A DNA stretch of 64,000 bases from Massalongia carnosa (Eukaryota): the NCBI GenBank assembly GCA_965645245.1, contig OZ287088.1, positions 372,001 to 436,000 on the forward strand, in the 5' to 3' direction. Positions 23,476 through 56,147 of the stretch are shown here, piece by piece (within the stretch, counting starts at the first letter, position 1; the number at the start of each line of letters is the position of its first letter). The position numbers were made by a program, and so were the translations under genes. The notes under the pieces were generated by a model, which worked only from the letters and a program-made list of their open reading frames with translations, searched no databases and was not told where the DNA came from.

Positions 23476-23730
23476 AGCCCGAACCCTTAGTTATGTCTCC
23501 GAACTGTGAATTGGAAAAACGCGGGCGCAAAACTAAACTACTTAATTAGGCGATCGGTACTCCTAATTTACATCCATTTGCAATCCAATATCTCCAAATT
23601 TTCGCACTTTTTAGCTAGCACTAGAAATTGCATTCGTTACCCATACAAGCCCTCAATAGTCATTGTGATCACGTAGAATTGCTCCCCGACTCTGTAGCTA
23701 TCTTGGCCGAAAGTTATATCGTCCCTTCTG

Positions 23731-25440
23731 TTGTGGCTGCATTGTGCCAACCATGGGGAGCTCTTTTGTCGTGCCCAACGACGCCCCCCCGATTCACTAG
23801 ACGAGCATCGTCACTTCCTCACCAATGTGCTTCATAACTTAACTAACTGCGAGGCATATCAGAAGCAAAGACCTATGAAGGGTCAGTCTTACACCCTGTT
23901 ACTCTCCAGTATGCTCAGCCTACTGGAGAAGATGCGCAACCATCCCACGATGGATCAGCTCCAAGCTACCATCAACCAAATAAAGAACACTACAGAGCAA
24001 ACGCTCACTAAAGTCACCTATGTCGAGCGCAAGCAAGACACCGCCCGCACAACACCCACTACCTCCTCCGCGGCCACTACTGGCTACAAGAGGACGATGA
24101 TCTGGGCAGAACGGGCAGCCTTTGCTGCCTCGGCCCCAACGATCTCTACGCTTTCGGGGACGTCCATCCCCGCTCCTATACTAGAAGAGAAAGCTCGTGA
24201 AATCGTCGTCAAATTGAACGACGAAGCCATAGCAAAGGATCTGGCCAAACTGGCCTCCTCAGCGCTCAAAGACAGAATCAACGCGGCAATATCTAACGCG
24301 TTAAAGGATCATAACAACACGAGAATTCCGACCAATCAAAACGCTCCCGCCCCCCTTATTTCCAATGCCACAGCCACGGCAGCAGCCGTAGCAATAGCAG
24401 CAAGGGTCCTCCCTAGCGGAGACCTACAGGTAATAGTCAACAACGCCTCAGACACGGAACGCCTAAGAAAAGACACCCGATGGGCCATCAGGCTATCGAG
24501 CAAAGCTACTATAATACAGCCAAGCTTCGGCTTAATCGCGCACTTTGTACCGGCTAATCTAAGCATGATAGACATCAAGGAACGCCTCTGGGAGGAAATA
24601 AGTCACATATGCCCGTTAGGAATAGGGTAACAGGAGTAGAATGGTTGTCCCGCACGAGTAAGGCAGGAGCCACAGCTAGATCCATGGTGGTATACTTTTA
24701 GAACGAATTAGACTGTAACGCCATTTTGGCCTCGCAGCTACATTTGGATGGGAGATCTTTCGCGGTGGAAAGCCATGTTCCGGAGGCCAGGCTTAGGCAA
24801 TGTTTCCGGTGCGGTAAGTATGGTCACACGAGCCATGCTTGCCGACAGAAGCATCAAACATGCTTCAAATGTTCCGAAAAGTCACCACATGACCGATTGC
24901 AAATCGGTCACTCCCAAATGCAATGCGTGTGGCAAGGAGGGCCACGGGGCAAGCGCAGAGTCTTGCCCGGAGCGAAAAAAGGAAAAGGCCCGAATGAAGC
25001 GGGCCAAAGAAGAAGCTCTCCCCTTCTGGCCTCTCAGGGCCTCCTCAAGGGAGACCCTAAATGGTCAGGAACAAGAACGGAGCAGTCCGCCGGCATCGAC
25101 CACGCCGACGGTCACGACAAGCAGTGGGGTGACCCCAGCCTCAACCCAGGTGGAACAGGGCCCTTGAACGGGCTCTGTACGAGAGAAAGATTGGCAAAGC
25201 GTGCCAACTCTCCGCAAGGGGAAGAAGCGGGCGCATGGGGAGGTAGAGCCCCTGGCAGACAACCCCAGCTCTACCAACAGGAGCATGGCACAAGCAGCTT
25301 CTAAGAAGGGAAAGAAGAAACCCTCCTCGAAGGCTGTGGAGGTCTTGAGCGATAAGGAGAACGACGATAGTTCTTCAATGACCACCAGATCGGCAACCCG
25401 TCGCTTGCAGCCCAGTACTCAGACAGAAGAGGAACTATGA
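23731..25440 (+). pseudogene. LINE ORF1 (gag-like, three CCHC knuckles), frameshifted
   Basis: LPSGDL motif; CFRCGKYGHTSHAC, a split CFKC..H..C and CNACGKEGH..C. Confidence 0.85.
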
Positions 25441-28400
25441 GTGAATACAACCACTATCTGTCCATACTTCAGTACAACTGCAACAAATCCAAGAACACTG
25501 TCATGGCGGACTTCCTTCGCAGGGAGGAAAGCATGAAATACGGCATCCTGGCCATCCAGGAACCCTGGGCGGGGAACCCATATCAACACACCACGCACAA
25601 TCCGGTCAAAAATGTTTTTCACCTTCTCTATCCCCCCGAAACAGGAGAACAAGAGCTCCCTCCGAGAGTATGCATGTTCGTCAACAAAGACATAGCAAGC
25701 GCCTCTTGGAAGGTAACATTCCACTCTCCCGATCTGATGACTTTGCACTTGGAATTTCCTAGCGAAACCCAGCGAGTCATCAATATCCATAACATCTACA
25801 ATCCCTCCCCCTCTCAGGGAAACTACAGCACCTTGCTAGACCTAAGCAAGGCGCTAGAGGTGGAGGGAGAACACATAGTGGTAGGGGACTTCAATCTTCA
25901 CCATCCCCTATGGACTGGCGAAGACTACCATCATCAACATCCGGAGGCAGACCAACTACTGGAGATTCTCGATCAAAGCGAGCTAGAACTTCTGCTCCCC
26001 CCTGGCACCATAACATACGATCATAGATCAGCGCAGAGCACGATAGACTTAACGTTCGCGACCCCCGCAGTAGCTTCAGCCGTACTCATGTGCGATGTGA
26101 GAAGAGAGTTGGATAGTGACTCAGATCACTACCCTATTGGCACAGCATTCGATATCACCACGGTTAAGAGGGACATAAGGTCCTCTCGCATGTGGTCTAG
26201 TCTAAGACTGATAGGAAAAAGCTACTAGACACGCTGACAGACAAGCTCCCGGCACCTAGGAGCGTGAGCACAGTTCAAGAACTCGACATTTGGCCCATGA
26301 GTTAGTTGAAGCTATCCAGCACGCAGTGGAGCCAGCAGTCCCACTTTCTAGAGGGTGCAATCATTCAAAACCTGGCTTTACTCCGGAATGCAAAGAGGCA
26401 GTCACCCTATGCAGACGTCTCAGGCGCAAGCATAAGGAAACGCGCTCTCTGGAAGACTGGGAAGCCTACCGAGAGGCGAGAAACAGCAAAAACAAAATCG
26501 TACAAAAAGCTCTCAAGACAACACATAGGGACAGGGTAGAGGAGGCCACCAGCACCCCAGATGGTCTCTTGAAGCTTGCGAAATGGGCTAAGAACAGGTC
26601 GACCCCATTCCAAGCCTTCACCCCAACCCTAATGAAAAGCGATGGCTCCAAAGTGACGGAGGCCTCGGGCAAGGCTGAACTGCTTCGCAGATAGTTTTTT
26701 CCTATCCCGGACGCCACCAATCTTGAAGACATCGCCGATTATCACTATCCAGAGCCAATCCAATTTGCTCCCATCTTAGCTCGGGAAATAACTAAAGCCA
26801 TCACAAAGGCAACACCATTCTCGGCCCCAGGCCCCAACGGACTGCCTAATAGAATCCTCAGAGATGTGTTACCGCTCATCATGCCCACACTTGTAGCTCT
26901 GTATAACGCCAGCTGGGAACTGGGTCATCACCCCAATGCTTTCAGAGATTCCACCACGGTGGTTTTTAGAAAACCAGCTAAGGCCGACTATAGTTTGCCG
27001 AATTCATACAGACCCATAGCCTTGCTCAACACTTTAGGTAAGACTATGGAGAAGATCATTCCAACCAGAATTAATCACGCGGTGGAGACCGAGAGCCTAC
27101 TCCCCAGACTCCATATAGGCGGCAGGCGAGCTAGATCACCCGAACTCGCCCTCCATCTGCTCCTAGAGGCCATCCACGCAGCCTGGCTTAACAACGAAGT
27201 GGCCACAGTGCTCATGCTGGACATCTCGGGTGCTTACGATAACGTATCCCACAAAAGACTACTGCACAACCTACGGAAGAGAACGATAGGCGGCAACATA
27301 GCTAAATGGATCGAAAGCTTCTTTCAGGAAAGGAAAACGATCATCGCCATGCCCGACTACACCTCGCAACCATTCACCACGAACTTTGGAGTCCCTCAGG
27401 GATCCCCTATATCTCCTATTCTTTATCTCTTCTACAACGCCGACCTTATGGAAGAGGAAGGGCCCAAAAAGATGAACTTGGGCTATGTCGATGACATATC
27501 CAAACTAATTATTGGAACTTCAGCACAACAGAACTGTAGAAATCTCGAAGCCTCGTTCATGACGAGGGAGCAGAAATGGGCGGACACATGCCTCCAAATT
27601 TGCCCCCGCCATATTCCAGCTCTTGCACTTTATCAAAGGACCCTCAGAGACGGATTTGAACCCCCCGGAGAGAGCTATCTCCCTAGCGGGCAAAACCATC
27701 AAGCCACAGCATACCGCCACCTACCTGGGCGCCACATTCGACGACAAGCTCAAATGGCACGCCCATTTAAGGAAACTGGAAGCCAAAACCTCAAAGAGAC
27801 TGGGGGCCCTAGGCAGCCTTGCGGGCTCCACATGGGGCACCAGTCTTGCGAGCCTTCGAAGAATCTATCAAGCCACCATACTACCGCAACTCACCTTTGG
27901 ATGCTCTGCATGGTATGTTCCCGAGGGCGGATACGGGACTATCACGCAAGCAACCGCCGTGCTCAAAGCCGTCAGATCTATTCAGCGACGGGCGGCACTG
28001 ATCATTTCAGGGGCATTTAGAACAACCTCGGGCCCGGCCTTGGATATGGAGCTTCACCTCCTGCCTGGCCGGCAACGCATGGAGCAGGCAGTGAACGAGT
28101 CACTACTGCGCATACGTTCAAGCCCCCTTTACGCCATAATACGTGAGATCCGCGCCTGGACAAGCCAAGCGGACTCCCACTATCGATACTGGAGCCCTCT
28201 AGCTAAGCTAGAGTCCCGCTTAATGACTTCGGGGAAATGCCCTCAACCTTGGCGGTTAGAGGTCATTCTTCCATTCATAGTGGAACCATGGTGGTCTCCC
28301 CCCGAAACGCACATTGCTTCCAGTAAAGAGGAAGCAATCAAAGAGCATGACAAGATGACATCAGAGCCGAACCAAATAGTCATATACACGGATGGGAGTG

Positions 28401-29293
28401 ATAACCCCTTCGGAGTTGGTGCGGCAGCGGTCATCCCCAGCGACAACACACGGGTAGTAACCCGCCTCGGAACGAACAAAGAAGCCACAGTTTACCTCGC
28501 GGAACTAGTGGGCATCGACATGGGACTGGCGGCGGCTATTGCACGATGGCAAGGGGAGATAATAACCGTTTTTGCAGATAATCAATCAGCCATCAAATCA
28601 GTAGCCGACCCCGGAACTTAATTAGGTCAGTTCATACTACGCGAGATCATTGGAAAAATCCACGCATGCCGGGAGATGCAGGCCAGAGTCAGACTCTGCT
28701 GGATACATGGGCATGTGGGAGTAGAAGGCAACGAGATAGCAGACCAAGCAGCAAAAGAAGCATCAAGCTGGTTAGAACCTGGCCAAAGTCCCTCCATCAC
28801 CCACTTCGACTTCCTCGGACACACAGTGAAGTCGGCGATAAAACGCAACATGAGGACAATGATCAGCAAAGAATGGGCTGGGGATTGGGAGGTAGAAAAA
28901 CGCGGATAGATGACGAAAAAACTCCTCCCCCAGCCCACTAACAAGGTCTTGCAGCTCTACCAGGGGCTTCACAAGTCAATGAGTTCCACCCTGGTGCAGA
29001 TGAGAACAGGTAAGATTGGTCTCCGCAAGTATCTCTCAGATATAGGCCGCACCGAAACGGGCGAATGTCCATGCGGCTTCGGTTATCAAACAGTTCACCA
29101 TGTGCTTCTGGAGTGCGTCAGGTACCATCGACTACGCATGGAGACTATCTGGAAAGGCCGGAAGGTGTTCGATCTCCAAGAAATTTTTAGCACCCCCAGA
29201 CTGGCCAAGGCAGCATCCAAATTCATGCTACCCTCACGTCTCCTCGGCCAATTTGGAGACGTGAGGATAGCAACCAAACAATCCACGAGTTAA
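25437..29293 (+). pseudogene. LINE ORF2 (APE endonuclease, RT, RNase H, C-terminal Zn motif) with stops and frameshifts
   Basis: ILQYNC, AIQEPW, GDFNLHH, SDHYPI; YRPIALL, GVPQGSPISP, YVDD; YTDGS, AELVGI, GHVGVEGNE; CPCG..HVLLEC. Confidence 0.93.
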
Positions 29294-32204: not shown

Positions 32205-33598
32205 TTCAGCAGTGTAATTTATCGATAATCAGCTACTAGTGAAACGCAGCCACCTTGTGTTTGCTATTCTAGTGTTTGGGCAAAGTCCTGACCCTAGGGT
32301 GTGGCATGACACCGTTCGTGCGCCGTCCGCGCCGGGTAGGCTACGGGGTCCATGGACGCTGTAGATGCGAACCCTGGGGTCAAGACATACTCCCAAAACC
32401 CCAAAACCGTGTTTCTCGCAGAGGAATGGTTTAGATCGTGCGAAGTCTCGCGATGGTGTGGGTGCGGTGTGCATGTGGTGAGGATTCGGGTAAGGTGCAG
32501 GACATGTGGTATTCAGCCTCTTTGATGTCGTCTCGAGGCATTCCATATGATTGAGGGGTTTGTGTGTATGTATAATCGGTAGGCGTCTGATTTCCAGCGT
32601 CCTAGCAGCTTGATTTCATCCTCGTTTAGGCCGGCGTTTTTCGCGGAGGTGGCGGCCCCTCTCCGAAAGGAGTGACCTGAATAATTTCCCTGATATCCCT
32701 TGTCTTTTAGAACGTCTCGTAATGCTTTAGTGACAAAGTTTCGCGTGAAAGCCTTTTTTGGATAGAACATAGGTTGGCTGAGATCTATTGGAAAACGTTC
32801 GATCAGAATTCTCAATGATCGGACTGGGCAGGCTTCGTCATTGACGGCCGCTACTGTAACTGTGACCCCTTGTCGGAAGGGATCCGTCTTGGAGGCGGGA
32901 AGGGTCAGCTGTAATCTGTCCTCGCTCAGTAATAGTGAACCTCTGGTTATGTGCCATTGGGCAAAGTCGTCTCCCCACATGTTTTCTTCCCATGTGAATT
33001 TTCCGATACGTAAGAAGGCCGCGAAGGCTAAACAGAAGGCCGCGTGCAGTATGGCTCCCCTTAAGGAATTTTGATCAAAAGTACTAACGATCTCTTCTAG
33101 GATGGATCGGGTTATAGGACGACGTTCTCGCGGCTGGGCGGCGGGACGGAGCCGGCGTATGCCTGCCACGATTCTCTCTAGTTGGAGATGATGGAAAATA
33201 TCTAATTCGGCCTTCGACGCGCCTCGGTCGACTTGATAAGATCTGATGCCGCTTAAGTATTGATGATGATGATGTATTCATACTCCGATATGTCACCGGC
33301 CGTAGGCCGGCCCATGCGGGCAAAGCTATCTAAGTTATATTACATGGAAAACCTTTTTCAGGTGTAAAAACCATATCCCTTGATACAGTCGACTGCAAAA
33401 GGTTGGTCGCGACCCTGCATTTGGGACCACACATCACGCGAAAATGGCAAAATGCCGGCAAAAATCCGAAAAACTACCCTCACCGCCTACATGCCAATGA
33501 AGTCGTACTACTGGTCAGTATTGAAGCGACTTGTAGATTAGTATATGTAGATGCCATTCCCCGTCTTTTTTCCCTCTCTCCTCTGCCATTTTCCCAAA

Positions 33599-34643
33599 AT
33601 GCCCCCCCCTCTCAGTGAGACCCTTCGTGAGACAATCACGCTTCGTTTTGTACGAGGTGACAGCAATAAGACAATTGAATCTGTCACTGGTGTTGGCATC
33701 AGACAGATTCAACGAATGAGACGTAATTGGACTCATTTTGGAGATGTGGTTCTACCTCAATTGTCAATTGGACATCGCCCTCGTAAACTCAGTCAATTTC
33801 ATGAGATTGAACTTCTGAAATATCTGGAGCAACGTCCGCATGCCTATCTGGACGAAATGTGCTGGTTCATTTGGGACGAATTTCAGATCTCTGCAGATGA
33901 GACCACCGTTGGTCGTGCCCTAAAAAGGCTTGGTTGGAATCGAAAGAAGGTGATCAAACAAGCAGCTCAAAGAAATCAAGGCCTTCGAGATGGATGGATG
34001 CAGAGATTCGGAGAATGGACTGCAGAGCAATTGATCTTTTTGGACGAAAGTGCAGCTTGCGAAAGAACCGGTTATTTCCTATCTCATCTTTCATCCCATC
34101 TTCGTCATTTTTCTGACTTTCTGACTAGGTGATCGACGATACGGATGGGCTCAGGCAGGCGTCCCTCCAATCATGATTCAGGATTTGAAAAGGTCAAAGA
34201 GATGGAGCATTCTTCCTGCATTTACCGTCGATGGATATATAGCTTGGGAGGTGCATCAGGGCTCCATAACTGCCGAAATTTTCAACGACTTCGTTCGAAA
34301 TCAGGTTCTTCCTCAGACGACTGCCAATGGAGGTCCTAGATCTGTTTTAGTACTAGATAATGCCAGCATTCATTGGAATCAGGAGCTTATTCAGATGTGC
34401 GAGACAGCCAACGTCACCTTGGCACGACTACCTCCTTATTCTCCATATTTCAATCCAATTGAAACGTCGTTTGCATTGCTAAAGGCATGGATTCGACGGA
34501 ATGGAGATTTGAGTCTTTCGTACACGGAGGAGTATGGGGGATTCGGACAATTTCTTCGGGATGCAGTCAAAGATCTGAGAATGGGAGGCCCGGGAACTTT
34601 ATTTAGATTGGCTGGCATTCAGTATCCCACCATTTCAATCTGA
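33599..34643 (+). CDS. DD34E transposase with one intron (34071-34128)
   Basis: HTH region; FLDES; splicing GT..CTGAC..AG restores ERTG-DRRYGW in frame; VLDNASIH..PPYSPYFNPIE gives 34 residues between D and E. Confidence 0.92.
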
Positions 34644-34658
34644 TTAGATACATAGTAT

Positions 34659-36836
34659 CTAATCCTCATCTTCATCTTCGGCATAATCGTATTCTAGACT
34701 ATGCGTCTCATCTTCCTCAATTGTATCTCTCACTCCAGATCCTACCTCCCCGCCCCCGTCCACCTCCCCATCCTCCATCCCCTTATCCACCCGAGTGACC
34801 GCCTGAGTGACCGCCTGAGTGGCCATTTGCGATGTCGGTAAATGGCGTTGACGCCGAGGGGGAGGCGGGGGCATTTGCTGAGATATCTGTCGAGACATTT
34901 GTCGAGACATTTGCAAAGGCATTTGCCGAGACATTTCTCTTCCAAATTTACTGACGTCTCGCGCCAGTTGAATCCCGATTCCCGGAGGAATTCCTAGCTC
35001 CTGCCAGAACGTCTGATGCTCGATGCCTTTCAAGGATTGAACGGTCATCAGATCGTACCCACCTTCCATCAATCGATCGCAGGCGTTGGTGAGCACTCCT
35101 TTCAAATGAGGCTTCATTTGAACAAGCCAACTGACATAGTCTTCCAGATCTTCTTCCACTGGACTGCTGCGGGCGACGGAGGGGAGAGGGAGAAATCGAC
35201 TCACGCTTCGACTGCTTCTGGATGATCTCGAATCTCTCCAATCCAACGGCGTTTCCTCAAGGGCTCGTCTCGAGTCAGGTAATGTAGAAGGAGCATACTG
35301 AGAAGGATAAAATGCCGGGGGAGGAAATGCCGAGTGAGGAAATGCCGAGGGGAATGCCGAGGGAAATGTCGAGGGGAATGCCAATGACGAGGGGGGAAAT
35401 GTCGAGTGGGGGATTTGGTACGAGTGGTGTTGATACATGGGATGTTGATAAATGGAATGCCCACCTCCAAAGGGCATTTCCTGAGACGAGGTTTCCTGTT
35501 TTGGAGATGATGATTCAGTCTTTTTCTTACCTTTATTCAGGGAGAATAAATTCTCTCTGATCTTCGGTGGAGGTGTTCGAGAATCAATGTCTGAAATTCC
35601 ATCATCTAGTGCTTTATTCCAGGTCACGAAATGAGCACTGTTGAGAGGATAATGCTGATTCTTCGTCTCATCATTCCAACAGTACTGTCCGAAATTCCTA
35701 CATGCGCGTTTTTCACAGAGATGCAGACTTTGCAATTCGGACATTCTTTCGGCCGTCATGCCTTGCAACATGGCTCGTTCCTCCATCTCTTTTTGCAGCT
35801 TCATGGTCGCGGTTCCCAATTTCTTGGTGGCGACAGCTGTGGCAGCAGCAATAGGATCATCGGGAGGAATGACGCCATCTTTGGTACGACTGAAGTTGAA
35901 AATAAGATCAACCGCGAAGCTTTTCTTTCGAATGCTGCTGTCTTCTAAATGAATTAGAACCTCCTCAATGGGCTGCCAGGATTCGATCAACATGAGAGCT
36001 GATTTTTCATGCGGTTTGATTCCATTCCATAACACGGTCGCTTTGATATCGACCAAATGACAAGCATACATTTTGGAATTCGCATACGTCTCGGCTTTCA
36101 AACTCATGTCCCCGGTGTAGCTTCTCAAAAAGAATCTTTTCGACGTAGTTGAATTGACTTCGTATGGAATCACCGTCTCGAAAACGACGTGCTTCTCATA
36201 CGACATCTTCACATTTAGTAGATATTTGATTACCATCGGAGGCAGTGGCGAAGGGGATAAACGGGAGGGTTCTTTTCTTCTTGGTTTTCTAGACTTCTTA
36301 CTGACAATCGAGTTACTAGGCACATTGAGATCTTCGACATCATCTTCGGCATCATCTTCGGAATCATCTTCGGCATCATCTTCGGCATCATCTTCGGCAT
36401 CTACAGCTTTCATCGCGTTCTCCTTTCTCCACTGACCCTGCCACCTCTGCTTCTCGTCTTCATCCGTCCAGTCGTCGGAGGAATCCTCCGTAATGACAAG
36501 GGGACTATAATAATTCGATTCGAAAGTCTTTGACTGCTGAGGCTGGACCTTTGACTTGGGAGGGGCCTTTGGCTTGGGAGGGACCTTTGGCTTGGGAGGG
36601 GCCTTTGGCTTGAGGGGGGCCTTTGGCTTGAAGGGGGGCTTTGACTTGAGGGGAGGCTTTGGCTTGGGAGGGGCCGACGTCGATTCCGGCGAGGCTTCAT
36701 CGATGCCGGCGGCGACAATGGCTCTGGCTCTCGGCCCTCCCAAAGTCAGTTTGATTCTCTTACCTTTGAAAGGCTCTTTTCCAGCCGGGGGGGGGCCGGA
36801 ATTTGATCTTTTTGCTCTCGGTTCACGAAGTTTCAT
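34659..36836 (-). CDS. Transposon-borne accessory protein, about 725 aa, function unknown
   Basis: Uninterrupted ORF; PKPKAP-type repeats, DDAE repeats, C-x4-C-x6-C-x8-H motif, possible SAM-like C-terminal helical domain. Confidence 0.8.
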   Translation of the reverse strand: MKLREPRAKRSNSGPPPAGKEPFKGKRIKLTLGGPRARAIVAAGIDEASPESTSAPPKPKPPLKSKPPFKPKAPLKPKAPPKPKVPPKPKAPPKSKVQPQQSKTFESNYYSPLVITEDSSDDWTDEDEKQRWQGQWRKENAMKAVDAEDDAEDDAEDDSEDDAEDDVEDLNVPSNSIVSKKSRKPRRKEPSRLSPSPLPPMVIKYLLNVKMSYEKHVVFETVIPYEVNSTTSKRFFLRSYTGDMSLKAETYANSKMYACHLVDIKATVLWNGIKPHEKSALMLIESWQPIEEVLIHLEDSSIRKKSFAVDLIFNFSRTKDGVIPPDDPIAAATAVATKKLGTATMKLQKEMEERAMLQGMTAERMSELQSLHLCEKRACRNFGQYCWNDETKNQHYPLNSAHFVTWNKALDDGISDIDSRTPPPKIRENLFSLNKGKKKTESSSPKQETSSQEMPFGGGHSIYQHPMYQHHSYQIPHSTFPPSSLAFPSTFPSAFPSAFPHSAFPPPAFYPSQYAPSTLPDSRRALEETPLDWRDSRSSRSSRSVSRFLPLPSVARSSPVEEDLEDYVSWLVQMKPHLKGVLTNACDRLMEGGYDLMTVQSLKGIEHQTFWQELGIPPGIGIQLARDVSKFGREMSRQMPLQMSRQMSRQISQQMPPPPPRRQRHLPTSQMATQAVTQAVTRVDKGMEDGEVDGGGEVGSGVRDTIEEDETHSLEYDYAEDEDED

Positions 36837-37180
36837 ATCTGAGATAAAAAATGGGGAATGGCAGAGGGGGAAGGGAAAAAAGACGGGGAATGGCATCTAC
36901 ATATACTAATCTACAAATCGCTTCAATACTGACCAGTAGTACGACTTCATTGGCATGTAGGCGGTGAGGGTAGTTTTCAGATTTTTGCCGGCATTTTGCC
37001 ATTTTCGCATAAATATTTGATGTGTGGTCCCAAATTCAGGGTCGCGACCAACCTTTTGCAGTCGACTGTACCTGTCCGATGTGACACCGGGTTGACGTCG
37101 GACAGGAGACGCAGAGCGAAAATCATGTGAGAACTGTGACGCCTTGTGAGATAAGAAGGAAAAGAGAAGTGAAACTACTG

Positions 37181-38390
37181 TTAATTGTACAATAGTGTAG
37201 ATGGCAGTGAGAATTGGGTCAGTAGACCTGTTTTCATTAGCCAAGTAGTTAATATCTTTAGACTTTTTGATGTTTCGGTCAGCTGTTGATAGTTGTTCGT
37301 GCCAGCGGCGCAAAACCTCTGTTCTCTATTGTCAATAAGTCTACAGAACATAATTACGTGTTCTGGAGTTTGTCTGTGCCAGCCACATGGGCAGGCCGGT
37401 GAGGTGACGGCGGGGACCCGTCGCTGGTAGAGGAAGTCAGCTAGACCGATCTTACCGGTGCGGATCTGTGTTGTCAGGGCGCTTTCTGCCTTTTTTAGCA
37501 GCGTGTGTATTTTTAGTCGTTTTTTGCTCAGTGGGACTGATTGCGCTATGGAGGGTTCGGTGACGCGATTTTGATATGCGCTCCACGAGTCGTTCCAGAC
37601 TTTCAGCTGTCGTGCTTTAATTGTCTGCATTTGTTTTTGACGAGCCAACGCTGCTACGGAGACTTCGCGGAGATGCGCTGGGGAGGGGTCGGACCATGGT
37701 GGGTGTGCTTTGGGTGGTTGAACGATTTTTGCGTCGATCAGTAGGTTTTTGGCCCAGGTGTGCTTCAGCTCTCCCGGAGTGGGTTTTTGAAGGCGTTTGC
37801 GACCTGCCTTGCCTTGAAGTTTGTTAACTATTTTGCTGCATGCAGAAGAAATGACCTTCGATTGACCTCCGGCTCGGAGTCGATGTCTGGCCTGCGCCTG
37901 TAGCGTGTCGAGGTGTACATCTATGGGTGCTATGTATGTCTCTGCTTCAAGAACTGGAATGGGAGTGGCTTTAAAGGCACCGGCTATGGTGCGAAGGCAG
38001 TTGTTTTGCATAACGGAGAGCTTGCTCGTTGACGTTTTTGACTTTTTGACTTCTTTGGGCATGTGCCATACGGTTGACCCGTATGTCATGACCGGACGCA
38101 CTACGGCGCTGTAAACTTGCCTTGCTTTGGTGAAGGTGGCACCCCAAGTCGATGTGGAGATTTTTGTCAATGCCATGGATTATTTAACCATTTTCTTTTG
38201 CGTTTTGCGAACGTGCGGTCCCCATTTCAATTTGGTGTCAATTTGCAAGCCTAAGACTCTAATGTCCGTTTTTGGTTCACTTTCGGTGCTTGCAATGTTG
38301 ATAGATGCAGCCATATTGAATCTTTTAGGATTTCTAGACAAGTGAATGAGTTCGTACTTCGTCGGAGCGAATAGAGATCCGTGTCGGGCT
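37181..38390 (-). pseudogene. LINE-2 ORF2 C-terminal fragment (RT end plus Zn motif, no RNase H)
   Basis: FAPTKYELIH, LGLQIDTKLKWGPH, STWG, QIRTGKIGL, CPCG..EHVIMFC. Confidence 0.88.
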
Positions 38391-39211
38391 AAGAATGATA
38401 AAATAGAGTTGACATCTCCTTCGTGAAGTCTCTATCCCAGTTTTCGTTCATCTCACTGGTGCGTTTTACGGCCCAAGACTATTGATGAATTCTACGATTG
38501 GGGTGAACGACGTCCCTTTCGCCCAGGTCAAACCCAGTTTACTCCTTAAGCATATATCAAGGGCGAGTCTAGCCGTAGCACATGCGCCGGCGAACCGACG
38601 GGGTCTCGTTACGAGCGAGATAGACATTCCCTGCTCTATATACACCGACATGCGCATACTGTCCTCTCGGGCTATGCAGACGGTCTCCGTACGGTGGCCG
38701 CCATTGCATACCACACCTCACGGGTTTTTTACGCCCACTTCGCGTTATTCATAAAGGTCTCCCGTTTATGAACCGACCATGTCTCGCAGGGATTTCGGCC
38801 ACTATGCTCCTGACCAGGCAGTATAGTATCGATTTTCCATCCCTACTAACCAAAACGAGTCGAGGACAACTCGGAGGGGTGCTCGTTTGAAATTCGTCTA
38901 CTAGCTCAGGGCCTAGACTGTTATCAATTAACGGGTTCCTCGTATATTGCCCTCTTCTTGTCCCAAGCGTGTCCTATTTGATGACTAGGTTGCCTCCACC
39001 ATCCCCGGTACGACTCCGGTTCGGGCCGTGTTGCTCACGGTAGCCATCAATCGGATGGTTTTCATAACCCAAATCCCTTGTATCGTGTAGGGTGTGACCC
39101 TACACTATGTATCTATATGTTTTATTTCTTTCAGCCGGAGGGTTCCGTGTTGTAGACGAAGGAGACCCGTGTGATAGACATAGCTGACCCGTGTCGTACG
39201 TCTTTAGCTCT

Positions 39212-39950
39212 CAGCCGATGACTGCATGAAAGGACTTGAACCTTTAAGAGTATGACCGAACGTTGTTAACGAGGTCTATGAAAATCTTATTAACGAGGTC
39301 TTCGAGAACAATATTAACGAAGTTCCGCTGAACTCTTTTCATTCGTTTTGTGATCCATCGAGGTCTACCCGTGTCAAATCCACACCATGCCCGTGTCAAA
39401 ATACATTATTTTCAGCTGATGACTGCTAGAGAGGACTTGAACCTCTAAAAATATGTACTCCGATATTAACGGGGTGCAGATCTGTCTTAACGAGCCCCCG
39501 CAGAACCCCCTTCACAGGGACGTGTTATTGATTTGTGACTGTGTTTTTTGTGACTGTGTGTTTTGTGACTGTGTGTTTTGTGACTATGTGTTTGTGATAT
39601 GTTTGTGACTGTATTTTTGTGACTGTATGCTTTGTGACTGTGTGCTTTGTACAACGTGTGATTGATGACTATGTGTTTTGTGACTCCGTGTTTTCCTCGA
39701 TTTTATTTAACAGGCCGGGCCTATTAAATGGGATATTGTTATTCTGCTCCGAGATGGAGTTTTCTTGAGGTGACAGCATTCGCCCCGGTGCCTTTACGCG
39801 CTCTGTTGATCCCAGCTGATGACTGCATGGGGAGACTTGAACTCTCAGGAGCTAGAACGCGTGTCGACTGTGCCCGGGTGGGGGATGATGCGGCTCCTTT
39901 TGTTCACATCTTCTTCCAGCTGATGACTGCATGAAGGGACTTGAACCCTT
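39212..39950 (-). repeat. Four 34-bp T-arm/B-box-like modules
   Basis: NNNRG-TTCAAGT-CYNNN-CATGCAGTCATCAGCTG at 39212, 39413, 39813 and 39917; a fifth degenerate copy lies at 47097. Confidence 0.8.
39531..39685. repeat. About 15-bp minisatellite with a TTTGTGAC core (8 copies)
   Basis: Read directly: repeated TTTTGTGACTGTGTG units. Confidence 0.9.
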
Positions 39951-40426
39951 AGAAGCATGGTGCAGGGACGCGCGCATTCTACCCTCAGGCGGTTGGCCTT
40001 CGTATCCTCTTCCGTACGTACGTCTGCGACGCGTGTGAACGCGTTAAATTAGCATTGTTTTGATGCGAAGAGATAGGAGCAAATCTATGTTTGACGGTCG
40101 CCCCACGGTGAGGCCTTTGGCGTCTCCGTGGTGACCGATGGTGTAGAAGGAGGAGGACCGATGGTGTAGAAGGAGGACCGATGGTGTAGCTCAACCGGAG
40201 TTTTAATAACGACAGCGACAACGACGAAGAACCGTAAGGAGATACTCAGGAAATTCGCCGCTTAAGTATTGTTTTATGGTTTTTGGGTTAATTCCCTTGT
40301 CGCCTAAATGAGCTGCCCAGTCGCATAATGAGCGAATGGACGGAGGAAAGGGGACGTGATTCCATATCACGTAGTATTCGGTGTAGCTTCGTCGTGCCTG
40401 CTCGTACGATGTTCTAGTCCCTACAG

Positions 40427-42600
40427 CTAGGCCCCACCATAGATATCTCGCTGCTGAGTTTGACAGTTCTTGGTTTTGGAACCAGTGTTCCGGTGGTTCA
40501 CCGATTGCGCCCCGTGGGCTAATGTCAAGTCCTGTAGTAAAGGATAGTTGTCGGCAATTTTGTTCCATTGACCGCGGGAAAGTATATCTGCCAGAGTATT
40601 TTCTCTTGATGAGATCCAATGTGATTCAATGACGATGTCATGTAATGCTAGTAGCATGGCAATTTCCCGTAGGGTTTCATGGCCGGGCCGCGTATGGAGC
40701 CGTTGCGTAGTCCATTTACGACCGCTTGACTGTCGCCATATATGACGAGTTTGGATCCTTTAAAATAGGTAGCCATTTGCGCAGTGCGTGTAATACAGCC
40801 ATCATTTCTTTGACATTGATATGTTTCTTCATGTCTCTGGACGAGGTCCTTATCGAGAATACTTCGGCGGACGAGACTACAGATTCCTTTGAATGTCCTT
40901 CGTCGATCGTTCCGACTATTTTGCTATGCGCCATGCGTGACGCGGCATGTTCCCGGACGAGGTCCGGTGAACCTTTGATACCTCGAGCAGATGCAGCGAG
41001 AAATTCTTTGGAATTTTCTTCGTCTGTCACCCCGGCCATCCGCATCGAAGACACCTCGGCAGACACCTCCAGAACTTCGCTGTAATTTCCTTCTTCGGTT
41101 ATCTCGGTTGTCCCGGACTTAAAGGTGCGCATTGCGATGTCCCCGGACGAGGTCCGTATGGCTGACGTCTCGGCAGGTGTGACTAGGAATTCGTTGAAAT
41201 TCTCGTCGTCTATCACCCCGACTATCCCCTGAGACTGCGAGACCCGGACATCTTGTATCCTTAACTCGTTGTCTGAAGACGTCTCGAAAGAGATTGAGTT
41301 CTTCTTCTTTGAAGGCATCCAATGCGAGGGTCTCGTGAGAACACCTCGTCTTGGGAGAGATACCTCGGCAAACGCACGCTGTGTTTCGGTTGTCTCTAGT
41401 GTTTGTGTATTTGAATAACGAGAAAGCGTGCCCGCTTCGGTGGAGTGTGGGGTTCGGTGCACCGAATAGTACCCGCCCATTCCCCATGTTCCCGAAGCGT
41501 CTGTCCATAGACGAATTTCCTCTCTAGTGTTCAGCGATCGTAAGATTTGAACGCCGTTCCATCGGGGCAAGAAATATTGCCACCATAATAGATCTAGTCG
41601 CATGTCGCCGGCTATGCGGATCCGACCCGTGTCTTCGCCGAGGGCGGTAAATAGGCGGCGTAAAAAGGCTCTGCCTGGTTTGACCACTTTGGCCGCAAAT
41701 GATAGAAAACCCTTGAAGGGAACGTAGTTCGTCTTTGGACATATAGTCTTGCGTCAATGCGCTGTTGACCCATTCGATGGCCTTTTTTAATTTGTCGGGA
41801 GGTAGGCGGGCTTCCATGCGTTTAGTGTCTAGTGTTAACCCGAGAAAATCGCAGATTTGCCCCGTCTCTCCCTTTGATGCGTTTATACGCATGCCCAACT
41901 CGTCGCACAACGTGTCGAACGTGGACTCGTAACGGGATGCCTCCTCGCTCGTCTTGACAATCGTGAGGAAGTCATCTAAAATAATGTAGGACTAGCCAGT
42001 TCTGAACGACTAATATCAAGTTTATTCCCTTCGCGAAGAGATCGAAGATAAATGGGGAGGTAAGAAGACCAAATGAAATAGGAGGAAGATGTCCATCCAA
42101 TAAGAATTGTTCCACTGAAAACCCAGCAGCCACCAGTCCGCTCTTGCGACGGGTATGTGCCGGAAGGCGTCCGCGAGGTCGCGTTTTACGAGGTATGCTC
42201 CTCGTCCGACGTCAAGAAGAGCTTCTAGTGCTTCGTCAAATAACGTGTACTCTAGGGCACCCCATTCAGCGGGAATGTGATAATTGACCGAGCCCTTGCG
42301 TGGATGAGACAGATGATGAATTCTTCGCCATTTGTCATTGGGGTTGGGGACGAGGCCCAGTGGGGAGGACATAAAGTGAGGCGGTGGTTCCCGTACGGGT
42401 ACTACACGGTGAAGTTGAATCTGTTCGTCCAGATCTTTGGACAACACCTAGGGTGCATCTTTGGTAGAAGATAGGTTCGGGCTTATGATACGCTGTTTTG
42501 GCCCTGAGTAGCCAATCCTTGCCCCACATCGAATGATGTTAAGAATTGTCCTTCTATAGACACTGTCTGGATGTTTCTCCAATCGTCATTTCCATCCCGC
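40427..42600 (-). pseudogene. RT/RNase H of the YR retrotransposon, frameshifted
   Basis: SSPLGLVP, WRRIHHLSHP, KRDLADAFRHIP, LDDFL, FLGLTLDT, WTDASG, HINVKEM, ENTLADILSR. Confidence 0.88.
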
Positions 42601-46760: not shown

Positions 46761-47417
46761 TCATTTGATATACGAGTTCTAGGTAGATGCCTGGGACTCG
46801 GCGTCTATATAGAAAGGCGGCTAGGCCTATCATTTCTGAACGTATCTGAAGTGTTAACGCGCTCTCCGCTTTGACTAGGATTTCGTGCAATTAATGCGTA
46901 TTTTTGACAGTAGGCTGCTTGCGATAGAGTGGGGATGGGTGTGCATTACTAGTATGGCTTCCACTATGCCTGACATACGTCTATGTGTCGTTTTCTGATA
47001 ATAGCGGTCATTTTATTTTGAACGGCGCATGCAGATTCGAGGGGTTTCGGACCTGACGGATTTGGTGTCGGTGATCCGTGTTGCGTTTGTAGCTCTCAGC
47101 CGTTGACGGCATGAAAGGACTTGAATTCCTAAGAGTATTAACGAACATTATTAACGAGGTCCTGGGAACGGCTATTCCATCTCCAAAATTGTAGCAACCA
47201 CAAATGATGATGAAGAAAGGGTCGAAAGAAATGTTAAAGACTTCAAACTGAAACGGGGAGACCGTCTCCCAGCAGGCATTCACTACTGGAAAAGGGAATC
47301 CACAGGGGCTACACAACGTGATGGTCACAATAGAGATACAAATAGGTAGGGTCGGGTCAAAGGGTAGACTAAATGCTACCCTTTTGAAGTGCTTGATTAT
47401 TTATCTATATAGGATAG

Positions 47418-55731: not shown

Positions 55732-56147
55732 GATTGTAACAAATCTTGCGTATGTCAAAATACACTGCTTTTGTTTTCTTTTCGAGCGCTTGATGCTGCA
55801 AGATACGACAATAAAGACACACCAGTCAAGTATATTATCAAGATTTGGGTTAAATAATGTTATGTGAGTTCTCTCATATTGTCGTCCTCGCTCGCAGAGT
55901 CTTCATCTGCTTGAGATTGCGCCCAGTTTCCTCTTCGTATCATTACTCTGTGCACCTGTTCCACCCGATCCAAAAACGAACTACAGTCAGATCGGGTTAT
56001 AAGAAACTGCTGATTAAGAAACCTCGGCTAGTAAGAAACTCGGACGAAAAGACCGGTTTTTTTTTTGGTGAGGAATAAGAAACCTCGCTCTATTAGAAAG
56101 TTTCTTAACTTTCTTTAAAAATTTTGCGGTGGTTTCTTATAGTAAAT

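What the first reader, a model, noticed from the sequence alone, without database searches (positions are those of the whole stretch)
39212..39950. Repeated T-arm/B-box modules with compensatory stem changes
Seen: four 34-bp modules with an invariant TTCAAGT loop (minus strand) closed by different 5-bp stems: AAAGG/CCTTT, AGAGG/CCTCT, AAGGG/CCCTT and GAGAG/CTCCC (one mismatch). Each is followed by a conserved C(AT/TA)GCAGTCATCRGCTG, while the spacers largely differ. I found no full cloverleaf or clear A box. Known: GGTTCRANTCC is the tRNA T-arm and TFIIIC B box. Inference: a selected RNA structure (tRNA mimic or T-loop module) or a TFIIIC-recruiting barrier inside a retroelement leader.
Basis: partly seen in the sequence, partly recalled or inferred. 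Interest (0 to 1): 0.7.

Follow-up and report, generated by a model that had tools for sequence, protein, structure and literature searches.

The report
tRNA-arm-like RNA modules in retroelement leader
The four repeats are real copies of a conserved folded RNA module that resembles one arm of a transfer RNA and sits in the non-coding front part of a fungal jumping gene that rides on the tail of a LINE retrotransposon; the module family is widespread, and I found no description of it in Rfam or in four literature searches.

Summary
Four modules lie at 39196-39263, 39396-39464, 39797-39864 and 39901-39968. A decayed fifth lies at 47081-47148.

A degenerate pattern found the same module in 45 metagenome contig loci. 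A covariance model then found 113 copies (74 distinct) in the 42 loci searched, one to four per locus.

The 5-bp stem covaries: 95-96% of cells are paired and 4-5 of 5 pairs show compensatory changes. An outer helix also covaries. G-U wobbles favour the window's minus strand, the T-arm reading.

They are not tRNAs, SINE heads, hammerheads or C/D boxes. ARAGORN and Rfam gave no credible match, and CUGAUGA is not conserved.

The modules sit in a 1.87-kb non-coding "head" (40256 to about 38387, minus strand). The head is fused at a constant 3' end to a 5'-truncated LINE tail. The composite element is flanked by a 15-bp target-site duplication, and one contig in a public run shows the empty site. 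This matches the MINE/WEIRD chimeras of Magnaporthe.

The head also carries a roughly 470-nt structured RNA domain (85 pairs, 42 compensatory) with no Rfam match.

Best reading: the modules are T-arm-mimicking docking sites on the head RNA. A DNA-level B-box or promoter role remains a rival.

The parts
39196..39263 (-). Module M1: outer helix P1, 5-bp stem AAAGG/CCTTT with loop TTCAAGT, conserved CATGCAGTCATCGGCT bulge
   Evidence: CM R1 61.2 bits, E 7.9e-18; sequence
39396..39464 (-). Module M2: stem AGAGG/CCTCT
   Evidence: CM R1 65.5 bits
39797..39864 (-). Module M3: stem GAGAG/CTCCC with one A.C; P1 with an internal loop
   Evidence: CM R1 58.5 bits
39901..39968 (-). Module M4: stem AAGGG/CCCTT
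   Evidence: CM R1 64.1 bits
38387..40256 (-). Non-coding 'head' of the composite retroelement. Its 5' end abuts the target-site duplication and its 3' end is ...TCTTAGCC(C).
   Evidence: TSD and 5' end; 3' end and junction. Loose ends at 38386-38388 in 4 runs show the head joined to different partners. No ORF of 90 aa or more between 38752 and 40205.
38400..38860 (-). Conserved structured RNA domain of the head ('block B'), about 470 nt
   Evidence: 15-sequence alignment A5. 85 pairs in 15 helices, 95.5% of cells paired, 42 pairs compensatory, 0 of 500 shuffles reach this, slid controls 33-47%. No credible Rfam match.
38956..39112 (-). Second conserved non-module block of the head ('block A')
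   Evidence: blastn 70-76% identity to heads in 11 other loci (L004, L005, L009, L011, L015, L019, L024, L027, L029, L036, L043)
39532..39694 (.). 15-nt tandem repeat (about 11 copies) between M2 and M3; its length varies among copies
   Evidence: TRF score 163; 26-nt and 11-nt deletions in other runs (table 4)
37071..38388 (-). LINE tail, first part: C-terminal half of a non-LTR ORF2 (332-aa open frame 37184-38179) and the start of the 3' UTR
   Evidence: tblastn to LINE ORF2 of L012 and L049; translation
33263..33383 (-). LINE tail, second part: end of the 3' UTR with a (CAT)n tail
   Evidence: Sequence. Contigs that skip 33383 to 37069 join the two LINE parts in other copies.
33384..37070 (+). 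Nested Tc1-like DNA transposon that interrupts the LINE 3' UTR
   Evidence: Terminal inverted repeats 94-98% complementary; DDE_3 E 4e-25; joints that skip it in 2 runs
40257..40271 (-). Upstream copy of the 15-bp target-site duplication (CAATACTTAAGCGGC)
   Evidence: empty-site contig with 15 shared letters (table 5)
33248..33262 (-). Downstream copy of the 15-bp target-site duplication
47081..47148 (-). Decayed fifth module of an older copy, with GTTAATA motifs upstream and a LINE ORF2 remnant at 46992-46786 just downstream
   Evidence: CM R1 36.2 bits, E 2.2e-9; tblastn; sequence

Best explanation
The four repeats are copies of a conserved structured cis-element in the sense RNA of a mobile non-coding 'head'.

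The head is about 1.9 kb in this window. It is found fused, at a constant 3' end, to 5'-truncated tails of an APE/RT/RNase H non-LTR retrotransposon. The fused unit is inserted by the LINE machinery. This is a MINE/WEIRD-type composite retroelement.

Each module is an outer helix (P1, closed by a conserved U.G pair) that stacks directly on a 5-bp stem. The stem is capped by an invariant UUCAAGU loop with a G-C closing pair, which is the tRNA T-arm sequence. A conserved single-stranded bulge of about 16 nt, (G/A)CAGUCAYYNGCU, lies on the 3' side. Each locus shows one to four such modules, followed by a roughly 470-nt highly structured domain.

Most likely mechanism (inferred): the modules are multivalent T-arm-mimicking docking sites on the RNA. 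The partner would be a host T-arm-binding factor or a LINE RNP protein. Docking would stabilise the head RNA and bring it to the LINE reverse-transcription complex, where it is copied onto LINE cDNA by template switching and later mobilised in trans. The brome mosaic virus box B is a precedent: a T-arm mimic that recruits viral RNA to replication.

Shown here: the structure, the strand, conservation across diverged lineages, the position in the head, and the mobility of the element. Inferred: the binding partner and the recruitment role.
For: Structure:
- 41 distinct copies in the sense orientation: hairpin 96.1% paired, 4 of 5 pairs with changes on both sides; whole structure 79.8% paired against 66.3 +/- 1.2 in shuffles (0 of 500 reach it) and 40.8-65.7% when slid.
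- 74 distinct CM-found copies: hairpin 95.0% paired, 5 of 5 pairs compensatory.
- 35 distinct stem combinations among 72 copies. The loop is TTCAAGT in 65 of 72.

Strand:
- Non-Watson-Crick pairs are G.U on the minus/sense strand 18 times against 3 on the plus strand for the hairpin, and 16 against 4 for inner P1.
- In 72 locus copies the counts are 34 against 13 and 24 against 6.
- The P1-closing U.G pair is conserved in 62 of 74 rows.
- The RNA intermediate must have this sense. The element ends in the LINE 3' UTR and a (CAT)n tail, and it is flanked by a 15-bp TSD. An empty-site contig confirms the insertion.

Context:
- LINE ORF2 homology was found in 19 of the 42 loci searched. In all 19 it lies downstream on the module's sense strand.
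- In one lineage (16 loci) a constant head of about 1.96 kb ends at the same base and joins different LINE positions, while the LINE 3' end is constant.
- In the window, head contigs and LINE contigs part at 38386-38388 in 4 runs.

Selection: the module core is kept where the rest of the 5' head has diverged beyond blastn detection between lineages.

Precedents: MINE/WEIRD (PMC2104539, passages read) and BMV box B (PMC4083346, one passage).
Against: - There is no direct RNA evidence. All runs available were contigs, so no transcript ends, strand or modification could be seen.
- No binding partner is identified.
- An invariant loop and bulge are equally what a DNA-binding site would show.
- Many modules are flanked by polar short repeats that look like transcription-factor sites. 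GTTAAYA-like motifs occur 61 times upstream and 17 downstream; ACAYGGG-like motifs occur 53 times downstream and 7 upstream.
- 13 A.C cells and 5 other mismatches occur in hairpins.
- P1 beyond the inner 5-6 pairs is poorly supported: 163 of 360 outer cells are mismatched.
- The copies were retrieved with a pattern that fixed 20 bases of the core, and the second alignment is fitted to the model. Many rows are related copies, so the counts are not independent events.
- The module's topology has the bulge on the 3' strand, the mirror image of a tRNA. A host T-arm binder that needs the acceptor/T stack may therefore not accept it.
Confidence: 0.55

Rival explanations
1. DNA-level element. Each module, with its flanking short repeats, is a unit of an internal promoter or enhancer of the head, as mouse L1 5' monomers are. 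The GGTTCAAGTCC core acts as a B box that binds TFIIIC as activator, insulator or anti-silencing barrier.
For: - A retroelement must carry its promoter inside the transcribed 5' part, and the modules lie there.
- The organisation is repeated and varies in copy number: 183-nt monomers occur two or three times in tandem in one lineage, on top of a proximal module.
- Polar flanking motif repeats look like factor sites.
- Every loop base is invariant, more than a T-loop fold alone needs.
Against: - A duplex DNA site does not need the two stem arms to stay complementary, yet 4-5 of 5 stem pairs and the inner P1 pairs covary.
- The wobble asymmetry (34 against 13) is a single-strand property.
- The modules lie 286 nt (window) to about 860 nt (another lineage) downstream of the element's 5' end, too far for a type-2 Pol III promoter to set that start.
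- Runs of four or more T on the sense strand are only modestly depleted: 26 observed against about 43 expected over 16 heads, with T5 runs present. Pol III read-through of 2-3 kb is therefore not supported.
- No A box.
Confidence: 0.22
2. RNA-processing signal. The T-arm-like helix is cut by RNase P or RNase Z, or the module is part of a self-cleaving motif. This would define RNA ends, much as HDV-like ribozymes do at the 5' ends of R2 and L1Tc.
For: - Ribozymes at LINE 5' ends are a known precedent (PMC3383444, abstract seen in a search listing only).
- The head has a sharply defined 3' end.
- The helix-plus-T-arm stack resembles the half of a tRNA that these enzymes read.
Against: - The defined end lies about 800 nt downstream of the last module, not at a module.
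- Whole heads with up to four intact modules are what gets reverse-transcribed, so the modules are not efficiently cut.
- No credible Rfam ribozyme or tRNA match at E up to 10 in the window, or E up to 1 in 10 loci.
- The bulge is on the wrong strand for a pre-tRNA-like substrate.
Confidence: 0.1
3. Plus-strand reading: a hammerhead-like ribozyme or box C/D snoRNA-like motif built on CUGAUGA.
For: CUGAUGA is present in three of the four window modules on the plus strand; M1 has CCGAUGA. M3's stem mismatch is a G.U on the plus strand.
Against: - The heptamer is not conserved in the family; CCGGUGA, CUAAUGA, CAAAUGA and others occur.
- There is no GAAA or D box at the required places.
- No Rfam hit to any hammerhead or snoRNA family.
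- Pairing is worse on the plus strand: hairpin 88.8% against 96.1%.
- The plus strand is antisense to the RNA intermediate.
Confidence: 0.02
4. Inert relics: tRNA pseudogene or SINE-head fragments, or chance palindromes, with no function.
For: The T-arm sequence is one that occurs in natural tRNAs (recalled, not tested). The window is a transposon graveyard.
Against: - No cloverleaf by ARAGORN in the window or in 40 loci.
- The core is kept across lineages whose LINE proteins are only about 30-57% identical, and whose other head sequence has diverged.
- There are compensatory changes.
- Distinct module types are orthologous between lineages.
Confidence: 0.03

Closest known systems
MINE composite retroelements and their WEIRD 5' part in Magnaporthe (PMC2104539; passages read, supplements unreadable)
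   Same: A full-length non-coding 5' part of 1-2 kb is fused directly to 5'-truncated LINE copies at many different LINE positions. The unit has a constant LINE 3' end and 10-20-bp target-site duplications. No solo copies of the 5' part are seen. The switch site lies next to a G/C-rich triplet: GCC*A/U in MINE, and a CCC overlap at 38386-38388 here.
   Different: Sequence homology between this head and WEIRD could not be tested, because no WEIRD sequence was available. The passages I read describe neither T-arm modules nor a conserved structured domain for WEIRD, and state that no similar sequence was found in other genomes. Here the head family spans many diverged contig lineages.
Brome mosaic virus box B recruitment element (PMC4083346, one passage read)
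   Same: A stem-loop in a non-coding region of a replicating RNA carries the tRNA T-psi-C loop / B-box sequence. It acts at the RNA level as a cis signal for template recruitment and stabilisation.
   Different: BMV is an RNA virus with one box B per RNA and a known dependence on protein 1a. Here a DNA-encoded retroelement shows one to four copies per locus, each with an added conserved bulge and closing helix, and the partner is unknown.
tRNA T-arm and the Pol III B box of tRNA genes and tRNA-derived SINE heads
   Same: A 5-bp stem, a 7-nt loop UUCAAGU, a G-C closing pair and covarying distal stem pairs. The sequence fits the B-box consensus and, from recall, the GUUCNANNC motif read by the psi-55 synthase.
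   Different: There are no acceptor, D or anticodon arms and no A box. The strand that carries the extra sequence is the 3' strand, the mirror of a tRNA. Loop positions that vary in tRNAs are invariant here.
Monomer arrays of mouse L1 5' UTRs (recalled)
   Same: Tandem units of about 100-200 bp that vary in copy number at the 5' end of a LINE-type element.
   Different: L1 monomers sit on full-length elements upstream of ORF1 and act as DNA promoters. They are not known for covarying hairpins. Here I found no head attached to a LINE 5' part with ORF1.
HDV-like ribozymes at the 5' ends of R2 and L1Tc (PMC3383444, listing abstract only)
   Same: A structured RNA in the leader of non-LTR retroelements.
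   Different: No Rfam match to any HDV-like family. The modules are internal and multiple, not at the RNA's 5' end.

Membership tests
tRNA gene, pseudogene or tRNA-derived SINE head | Cloverleaf with acceptor, D, anticodon and T arms | tested here: not met
   ARAGORN finds 0 genes in the window and 0 in 40 loci. There is no Rfam tRNA hit at E up to 10 or E up to 1.
tRNA gene, pseudogene or tRNA-derived SINE head | T-arm / B box (5-bp stem, 7-nt T loop, G-C closing pair) | tested here: met
   Loop TTCAAGT in 65 of 72 copies; closing G-C in 69 of 74 rows.
tRNA gene, pseudogene or tRNA-derived SINE head | A box about 30-60 nt upstream of the B box | tested here: not met
   No conserved A-box-like sequence in the aligned 5' flanks. 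The P1 5' strand is variable and the nearest conserved motif is GTTAAYA. The A-box consensus itself is recalled.
Hammerhead ribozyme (plus strand) | Conserved CUGANGA and GAAA cores around three helices | tested here: not met
   The heptamer varies among copies. No Rfam hammerhead hit.
Box C/D snoRNA (plus strand) | C box RUGAUGA and D box CUGA brought together by a terminal stem | tested here: not met
   The C-box-like heptamer is not conserved, there is no D box next to P1, and there is no Rfam snoRNA hit.
MINE-type chimeric (composite) LINE retroelement | Non-coding 5' part with a constant 3' end fused to LINE copies truncated at variable positions | tested here: met
   Head end ...CCTTGG or ...CCTTAG joined to 8 different LINE sequences in 10 loci of one lineage. 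Window junction at 38386-38388 with divergent partners in 4 runs.
MINE-type chimeric (composite) LINE retroelement | Constant LINE 3' end and a 10-20-bp target-site duplication around the whole unit | tested here: met
   Common LINE 3' end in L047, L002, L026, L033 and L042. 15-bp TSD in the window and an empty-site contig.
MINE-type chimeric (composite) LINE retroelement | Sequence homology of the 5' part to WEIRD | not testable with these tools
   No WEIRD sequence was available. The supplements of PMC2104539 could not be read.
T-arm-mimic RNA recruitment element (BMV box B type) | T-psi-C-like stem-loop in a non-coding region of the replicated RNA | tested here: met
   The RNA sense follows from the element's architecture.
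T-arm-mimic RNA recruitment element (BMV box B type) | Required in cis for recruitment or stabilisation by the replication machinery; loop modified to T and psi | not testable with these tools
   Needs genetics and modification mapping.
LINE 5'-UTR monomer array (L1 type) | Tandem units directly upstream of ORF1 of a full-length LINE, with promoter activity | tested here: inconclusive
   Repeated units are present. In the 19 loci with LINE hits the earliest LINE position joined is near the start of the endonuclease domain (L008, L016). I did not search for ORF1 with a profile, and promoter activity cannot be tested here.
TFIIIC-bound B-box (ETC-like) insulator | TFIIIC occupancy without Pol III transcription | not testable with these tools
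   Only the sequence match to the B-box consensus can be seen.
HDV-like ribozyme of LINE 5' ends | Nested double pseudoknot with cleavage at its own 5' end | tested here: not met
   No Rfam HDV-like or CPEB3/drz hit.

The most novel reading that the evidence does not exclude
The whole head is an ancient, self-standing family of structured non-coding RNA that parasitises fungal LINEs and is the wider family to which the unexplained WEIRD RNA of Magnaporthe belongs. It consists of up to four T-arm modules plus a 15-helix domain of about 470 nt that ends at a conserved ...CCUUGG(C) terminus. On this reading the T-arm modules hijack host tRNA T-arm machinery (psi-55/m5U-54 enzymes, export or chaperone factors) or the LINE RNP. 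The large domain would be a new ribozyme-sized RNA that sets its own 3' end or captures the LINE reverse transcriptase to programme the template switch.
Probability: 0.25. Interest if true: 0.85.

Novelty: new variant of a known kind. Interest (0 to 1): 0.68.

Why it matters
Composite head-plus-LINE retroelements (MINE) have been described, in the literature I could search, only in Magnaporthe. There the 5' RNA, WEIRD, is an unexplained, highly expressed non-coding RNA reported to have no relatives. In this window and in 45 metagenome contig loci, elements of the same architecture carry two strongly covarying RNA features: repeated T-arm mimics and a roughly 470-nt structured domain. Neither is in Rfam.

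This turns a vague 'chimeric pseudogene' into a family with conserved, testable RNA parts. It gives specific mutations (stem disruption and restoration, loop, bulge) for asking how a non-coding RNA gets itself copied by a LINE. It also adds a candidate large structured RNA in eukaryotic mobile DNA.

Tried and rejected
- **Hammerhead or C/D-box reading of the plus strand.** Rejected, because CUGAUGA is not conserved and Rfam has no hit.
- **tRNA or SINE head.** ARAGORN and Rfam are negative.
- **Single-sequence folding.** Folding 81-nt windows on both strands gives z-scores near 0 for 6 of 8 folds, so thermodynamics alone says nothing.
- **Pseudoknot between loop CAAG and the CUUG linker.** Rejected. 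The linker varies without compensation and there is no spacer.
- **Mini-hairpin inside the conserved bulge.** No covariation.
- **An extended 31-bp helix formed by the flanks.** It mixes G.U-type and A.C-type mismatches on either strand, so it is not a credible helix in the sense RNA.
- **Pairing of the bulge with the invariant GAUUGAC of block B.** Only 5 bp, with no compensation in L049 or L005.
- **Pol III read-through.** Runs of four or more T number 26 observed against about 43 expected over 16 heads, two of them related. This is not decisive.
- **A tRNA-like start of the head in one lineage** (acceptor-like pairing plus GGTTCGAATC). It is not recognised by ARAGORN or Rfam.
- **Telomerase-RNA and SRP-RNA likenesses of block B.** The template-like 8-mer lies in a variable stem, and no Rfam SRP hit was found.
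- **Splicing as the cause of the constant head end.** 2 of 2 checkable LINE junction sites are preceded by AG. However, the same sites also fit the G/C microhomology of a template switch, and the window junction shows a CCC overlap. This is left open.
- **Module mimicry of the LINE 3' UTR.** No CM hit there.
- **Whole-genome search.** No genome is held.
- **Expression.** No RNA holder is listed. All four laid runs are contigs, so they show no transcript ends.
- **Earlier findings of this scan.** Nothing relevant.
- **Module pattern outside metagenomes.** Prokaryote genomes gave 1 chance hit without a hairpin, and viral contigs gave 0.
- **Block B motif in prokaryote genomes and viral contigs.** 0 and 0.
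- **Supplements of PMC2104539,** which hold the MINE/WEIRD junction sequences, could not be read.
- **Literature searches** for such modules in LINE or retroelement leaders found nothing beyond MINE (listings only).
Full report
**1. The observation**

The 14-mer CAGCYGATGACTGC occurs exactly at + 39212, 39413, 39813 and 39917, and once more with two mismatches at 47097. Chance expectation is 0.63, and 0 of 100 dinucleotide-preserving shuffles reach five matches. The repeat finder reports them as one four-copy family with spacings of 201, 400 and 104 nt. The copies are only 72-76% identical over 50 nt because the flanks differ.

On the minus strand each module has a 5-bp stem: AAAGG/CCTTT, AGAGG/CCTCT, GAGAG/CTCCC (one A.C) or AAGGG/CCCTT. 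The stem encloses TTCAAGT and is followed by C(AT/TA)GCAGTCATCRGCTG.

ARAGORN finds no tRNA in the window. An Rfam scan of 38500-40700 at E up to 10 gives one chance hit, a streptococcal sRNA at 19.8 bits against a gathering score of 50. Single-sequence folding is uninformative, with z near 0 for six of eight 81-nt folds.

**2. A large family elsewhere**

No genome is held for this window. I therefore scanned the public collections with GCYGATGACTGC-N8-ACTTGAAC.
- Metagenome contigs gave 49 loci.
- Prokaryote genomes gave one locus.
- Viral contigs gave none.

Five hits (L020, L030, L031, L034, L050) have no complementary stem and lie in unrelated, mostly GC-rich sequence. I dropped them as chance matches. 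That leaves 45 metagenome loci. All the remaining hits show the hairpin, with many different stems.

I aligned 41 distinct 68-nt copies, 37 from loci and 4 from the window, on both strands. A covariance model built from the sense alignment gave these results:
- It finds the four window modules at 58.5-65.5 bits.
- It finds a fifth, decayed copy at 47081-47148 on the minus strand (36.2 bits, E 2.2e-9).
- In the 42 loci searched it finds 113 matches, 74 of them distinct. 109 of the 113 have E at or below 1.2e-7.
- Loci hold one to four modules; many are cut by contig ends.

**3. Structure and strand**

In the sense (minus-strand) alignment of 41 copies:
- The hairpin is paired in 96.1% of cells, and four of five pairs change on both sides. 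The fifth pair, the G-C closing pair, was fixed by my search pattern.
- With the outer helix P1 included, 79.8% of cells pair. Shuffles give 66.3 +/- 1.2 (0 of 500 reach the observed value), and slid partners give 40.8-65.7%.

The same structure on the plus strand pairs less well: hairpin 88.8%, whole structure 72.6%.

On the 74 distinct model-found copies the hairpin is 95.0% paired, with all five pairs compensatory. That alignment is fitted to the model and leans towards it.

Non-Watson-Crick cells favour the minus strand:

| Set | Helix | G.U on minus (sense) | G.U on plus (A.C in sense) |
|---|---|---|---|
| 41 copies | hairpin | 18 | 3 |
| 41 copies | inner P1 | 16 | 4 |
| 72 locus copies | hairpin | 34 | 13 |
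| 72 locus copies | inner P1 | 24 | 6 |

The pair that closes P1 against the hairpin is U.G in 62 of 74 rows and U-A in 10. On the plus strand it would be a C.A mismatch.

P1 is well supported only for its inner five or six pairs. The outer five columns are mismatched in 163 of 360 cells, partly because P1 has internal loops of different size in different lineages.

In copies that were not forced by the search pattern, the conserved core is:
- G-UUCAAGU-C (65 of 72 loops; five more are TTTAAGT in AT-rich, apparently C-to-T-mutated loci);
- a single-stranded (G/A)CAGUCAYYNGCU after the stem.

The plus-strand CUGAUGA is therefore not invariant; CCGGUGA, CUAAUGA, CAAAUGA and others occur. That removes the hammerhead and C-box readings.

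**4. What the modules sit in**

tblastn with non-LTR ORF2 pieces was run against all loci. The queries came from two loci (L008, L012) and from the window, and carry Exo_endo_phos_2, RVT_1 and RNase_H domains.
- LINE homology appears in 19 of the 42 loci.
- In 19 of 19 it lies downstream of the modules on the module's sense strand, 137-1371 nt after the last module.
- 23 loci gave no hit. Many are short contigs. One of them, L001, shows an RNase H-like tail by eye.

In one lineage with 16 loci the picture is clear:
- A constant block of about 1.96 kb is shared at 92-96% identity.
- It starts at the same sequence in nine loci, with at least six different upstream flanks.
- It ends at the same base (...TATCCTTGG or ...CCTTAG) in every copy that reaches that point.
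- It is joined there to 8 different LINE sequences in the 10 loci examined.
- The LINE 3' end is again constant in the five copies that share the same LINE subfamily.

The unit is thus a non-coding 'head' plus a LINE tail of variable length.

**5. The window copy, base by base**

- On the minus strand an ORF reads ...KQYLSG and is interrupted at 40256. It resumes as QYLSGIRSYQ... at 33262.
- The 15-mer CAATACTTAAGCGGC stands at 40271-40257 and again at 33262-33248.
- In one public run a contig joins 33247 to 40257 with 15 letters shared by both sides. This is the empty site (table 5).
- The inserted element is therefore 40256 to 33263 (6,994 nt). It ends in a LINE 3' UTR with a (CAT)n tail.
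- It contains a nested Tc1-like DNA transposon at 33384-37070. The evidence is terminal inverted repeats 94-98% complementary, a DDE_3 domain, and contigs in two runs that skip exactly this piece.
- The head runs from 40256 to about 38387. The LINE tail begins at about 38388 with the C-terminal half of ORF2.
- At 38386-38388 (CCC) contigs from four runs part company. Head contigs continue into different sequences, and LINE contigs continue into the LINE's own upstream sequence (table 7).
- The interrupted host ORF has a weak Phage_integrase match (E 6.7e-4, below the curated cut-off). Calling it a DIRS/Ngaro-like element is my reading and was not tested.

**6. The closest known system**

This architecture is that of MINE in Magnaporthe. 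There a full-length 1.1-kb non-coding RNA, WEIRD, is fused to 5'-truncated MGL LINE copies at 28 different positions and flanked by 10-20-bp direct repeats. No solo WEIRD copy and no relative in other genomes was found. The proposed origin is template switching of the LINE reverse transcriptase at sites with the consensus GCC*A/U (PMC2104539; passages read; its supplements could not be read).

The CCC overlap at the window junction, and the frequent C after ...TTGG in other copies (11 of 14 junctions I listed), fit a microhomology-assisted switch to the 3' end of a head RNA. Splicing from a donor at the head's end is not excluded: 2 of 2 checkable LINE sites are preceded by AG. I could not test whether the head is homologous to WEIRD.

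**7. What else the head contains**

- Many modules have polar flanking repeats. GTTAAYA-like motifs occur 61 times upstream and 17 downstream; ACAYGGG-like motifs occur 53 times downstream and 7 upstream. 43 and 32 of 76 modules have at least one. M1 and M2 of the window show this; M3 and M4 do not.
- Downstream of the modules, two blocks are conserved at 70-85% identity between lineages whose LINE proteins are only about 30-57% identical. They lie at window 39112-38956 and 38854-38520.
- The larger block, aligned from 15 loci, folds into 85 pairs in 15 helices. 95.5% of cells are paired and 42 pairs have compensatory changes. 0 of 500 shuffles reach this, and slid controls give 33-47%.
- Several G.U pairs in that block are invariant and exist only on the sense strand.
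- The block has no credible Rfam match. Its most conserved motif is absent from the prokaryote-genome and viral collections.
- It ends in the conserved ...ATCCTTGG(C) terminus at which the LINE tail is attached.

**8. How the modules most likely work**

The element is copied through an RNA of LINE sense, so the T-arm reading is the one present in the RNA intermediate. Covarying stems, the wobble asymmetry and a conserved U.G pair are single-strand properties. A duplex DNA site does not need them. I therefore place the function on the RNA.

Each module is a continuous helix (P1 stacked on the 5-bp stem) capped by a T-loop. It presents an invariant loop and an invariant bulge of about 16 nt. Each locus shows one to four copies, and individual module types are orthologous between lineages.

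The best analogy is the box B of brome mosaic virus, a T-psi-C mimic needed for recruitment and stabilisation of the viral RNAs (PMC4083346, one passage). I infer that the modules dock a protein that keeps the head RNA stable and brings it to the LINE reverse-transcription complex. Candidates are a host T-arm reader or a LINE RNP component. The loop fits the recalled GUUCNANNC motif of the psi-55 synthase. This step is inference and no partner was identified.

The main rival is a DNA-level role as promoter/enhancer units or TFIIIC-bound B boxes. The position in the 5' part, the copy-number variation and the flanking motif repeats favour it. A dual role, as in tRNA genes, is possible. Against a Pol III promoter for the whole unit:
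- The modules lie 286 to about 860 nt inside the element.
- T-runs are only modestly depleted.

A processing role is unlikely, because whole heads with intact modules are what is reverse-transcribed and the defined 3' end lies about 800 nt away.

**9. Novelty and limits**

I found no description of such modules, or of the structured domain, in Rfam 15. Four literature searches (listings only) found nothing beyond the MINE papers.

Limits:
- The copies come from metagenome contigs retrieved with a pattern that fixes part of the core.
- Many rows are related copies, so the counts are not independent events.
- No RNA data were available, because all runs are contigs.
Fungal Zn2Cys6 factor genes next to related copies, and a lichen-metagenome run that holds 54% of the stretch's words, point to a filamentous fungus.

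I file the finding as a new variant of a known kind: a MINE-type composite retroelement whose head carries a new T-arm-mimic RNA module family and a new large structured domain.

Noticed in passing
window 38400-38860 (minus strand); alignment A5 of 15 loci: A conserved structured RNA domain of about 470 nt lies downstream of the modules. It has 85 pairs in 15 helices, 95.5% of cells paired and 42 compensatory pairs, with no Rfam match. It ends at the conserved ...CCTTGG(C) terminus where the LINE tail is attached. Its size and conservation are those of a ribozyme-class RNA.
   Followed up: partly
L016, L028 and related loci: first ~95 nt of the head (sense strand): In one lineage the head starts with a tRNA-like stretch: 5-bp acceptor-like pairing, a long central hairpin and a GGTTCGAATC T-arm-like hairpin. 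ARAGORN and Rfam do not call it a tRNA.
   Followed up: partly
window 33384-37070: A Tc1-like DNA transposon with ~200-bp terminal inverted repeats carries a split DDE_3 transposase on the plus strand. On the opposite strand it carries a 745-aa open frame (34662-36896) full of 12-nt and 18-nt tandem repeats, with no credible Pfam family.
   Followed up: no
window 40257-41753 and 32516-33262 (minus strand): The composite element has split an ORF with a weak tyrosine-recombinase match. Upstream lies an RNase H-like ORF (by eye) with an internal repetitive insert. Together they look like a DIRS/Ngaro-type retroelement, but no Pfam RT hit was obtained.
   Followed up: no
window 39532-39694: A 15-nt tandem repeat (TTTGTGACTGTGTGT, about 11 copies) lies inside the head between M2 and M3. 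Other copies in public runs differ by 26-nt and 11-nt deletions. One contig collapses M1-M4 by joining 39255 to 39956.
   Followed up: partly
window 6812-11229 (-), 13047-17336 (+), 23698-29290 (+), 56109-57899 (+), 58500-60317 (-), 60985-62678 (+): The window is a transposon-rich region. It holds two Copia elements (one with an intact 1430-aa polyprotein), a second unrelated non-LTR element with EN and RT but no modules, a pogo/Tc5 element, a MULE and another Tc1-like element.
   Followed up: no
L002, L013, L018, L021, L025, L033, L042, L047 (GC 32-34%): Copies of one head lineage sit in very AT-rich surroundings and carry many C-to-T/G-to-A changes, for example loop TTCAAGT to TTTAAGT. This is consistent with repeat-induced point mutation.
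   Followed up: no
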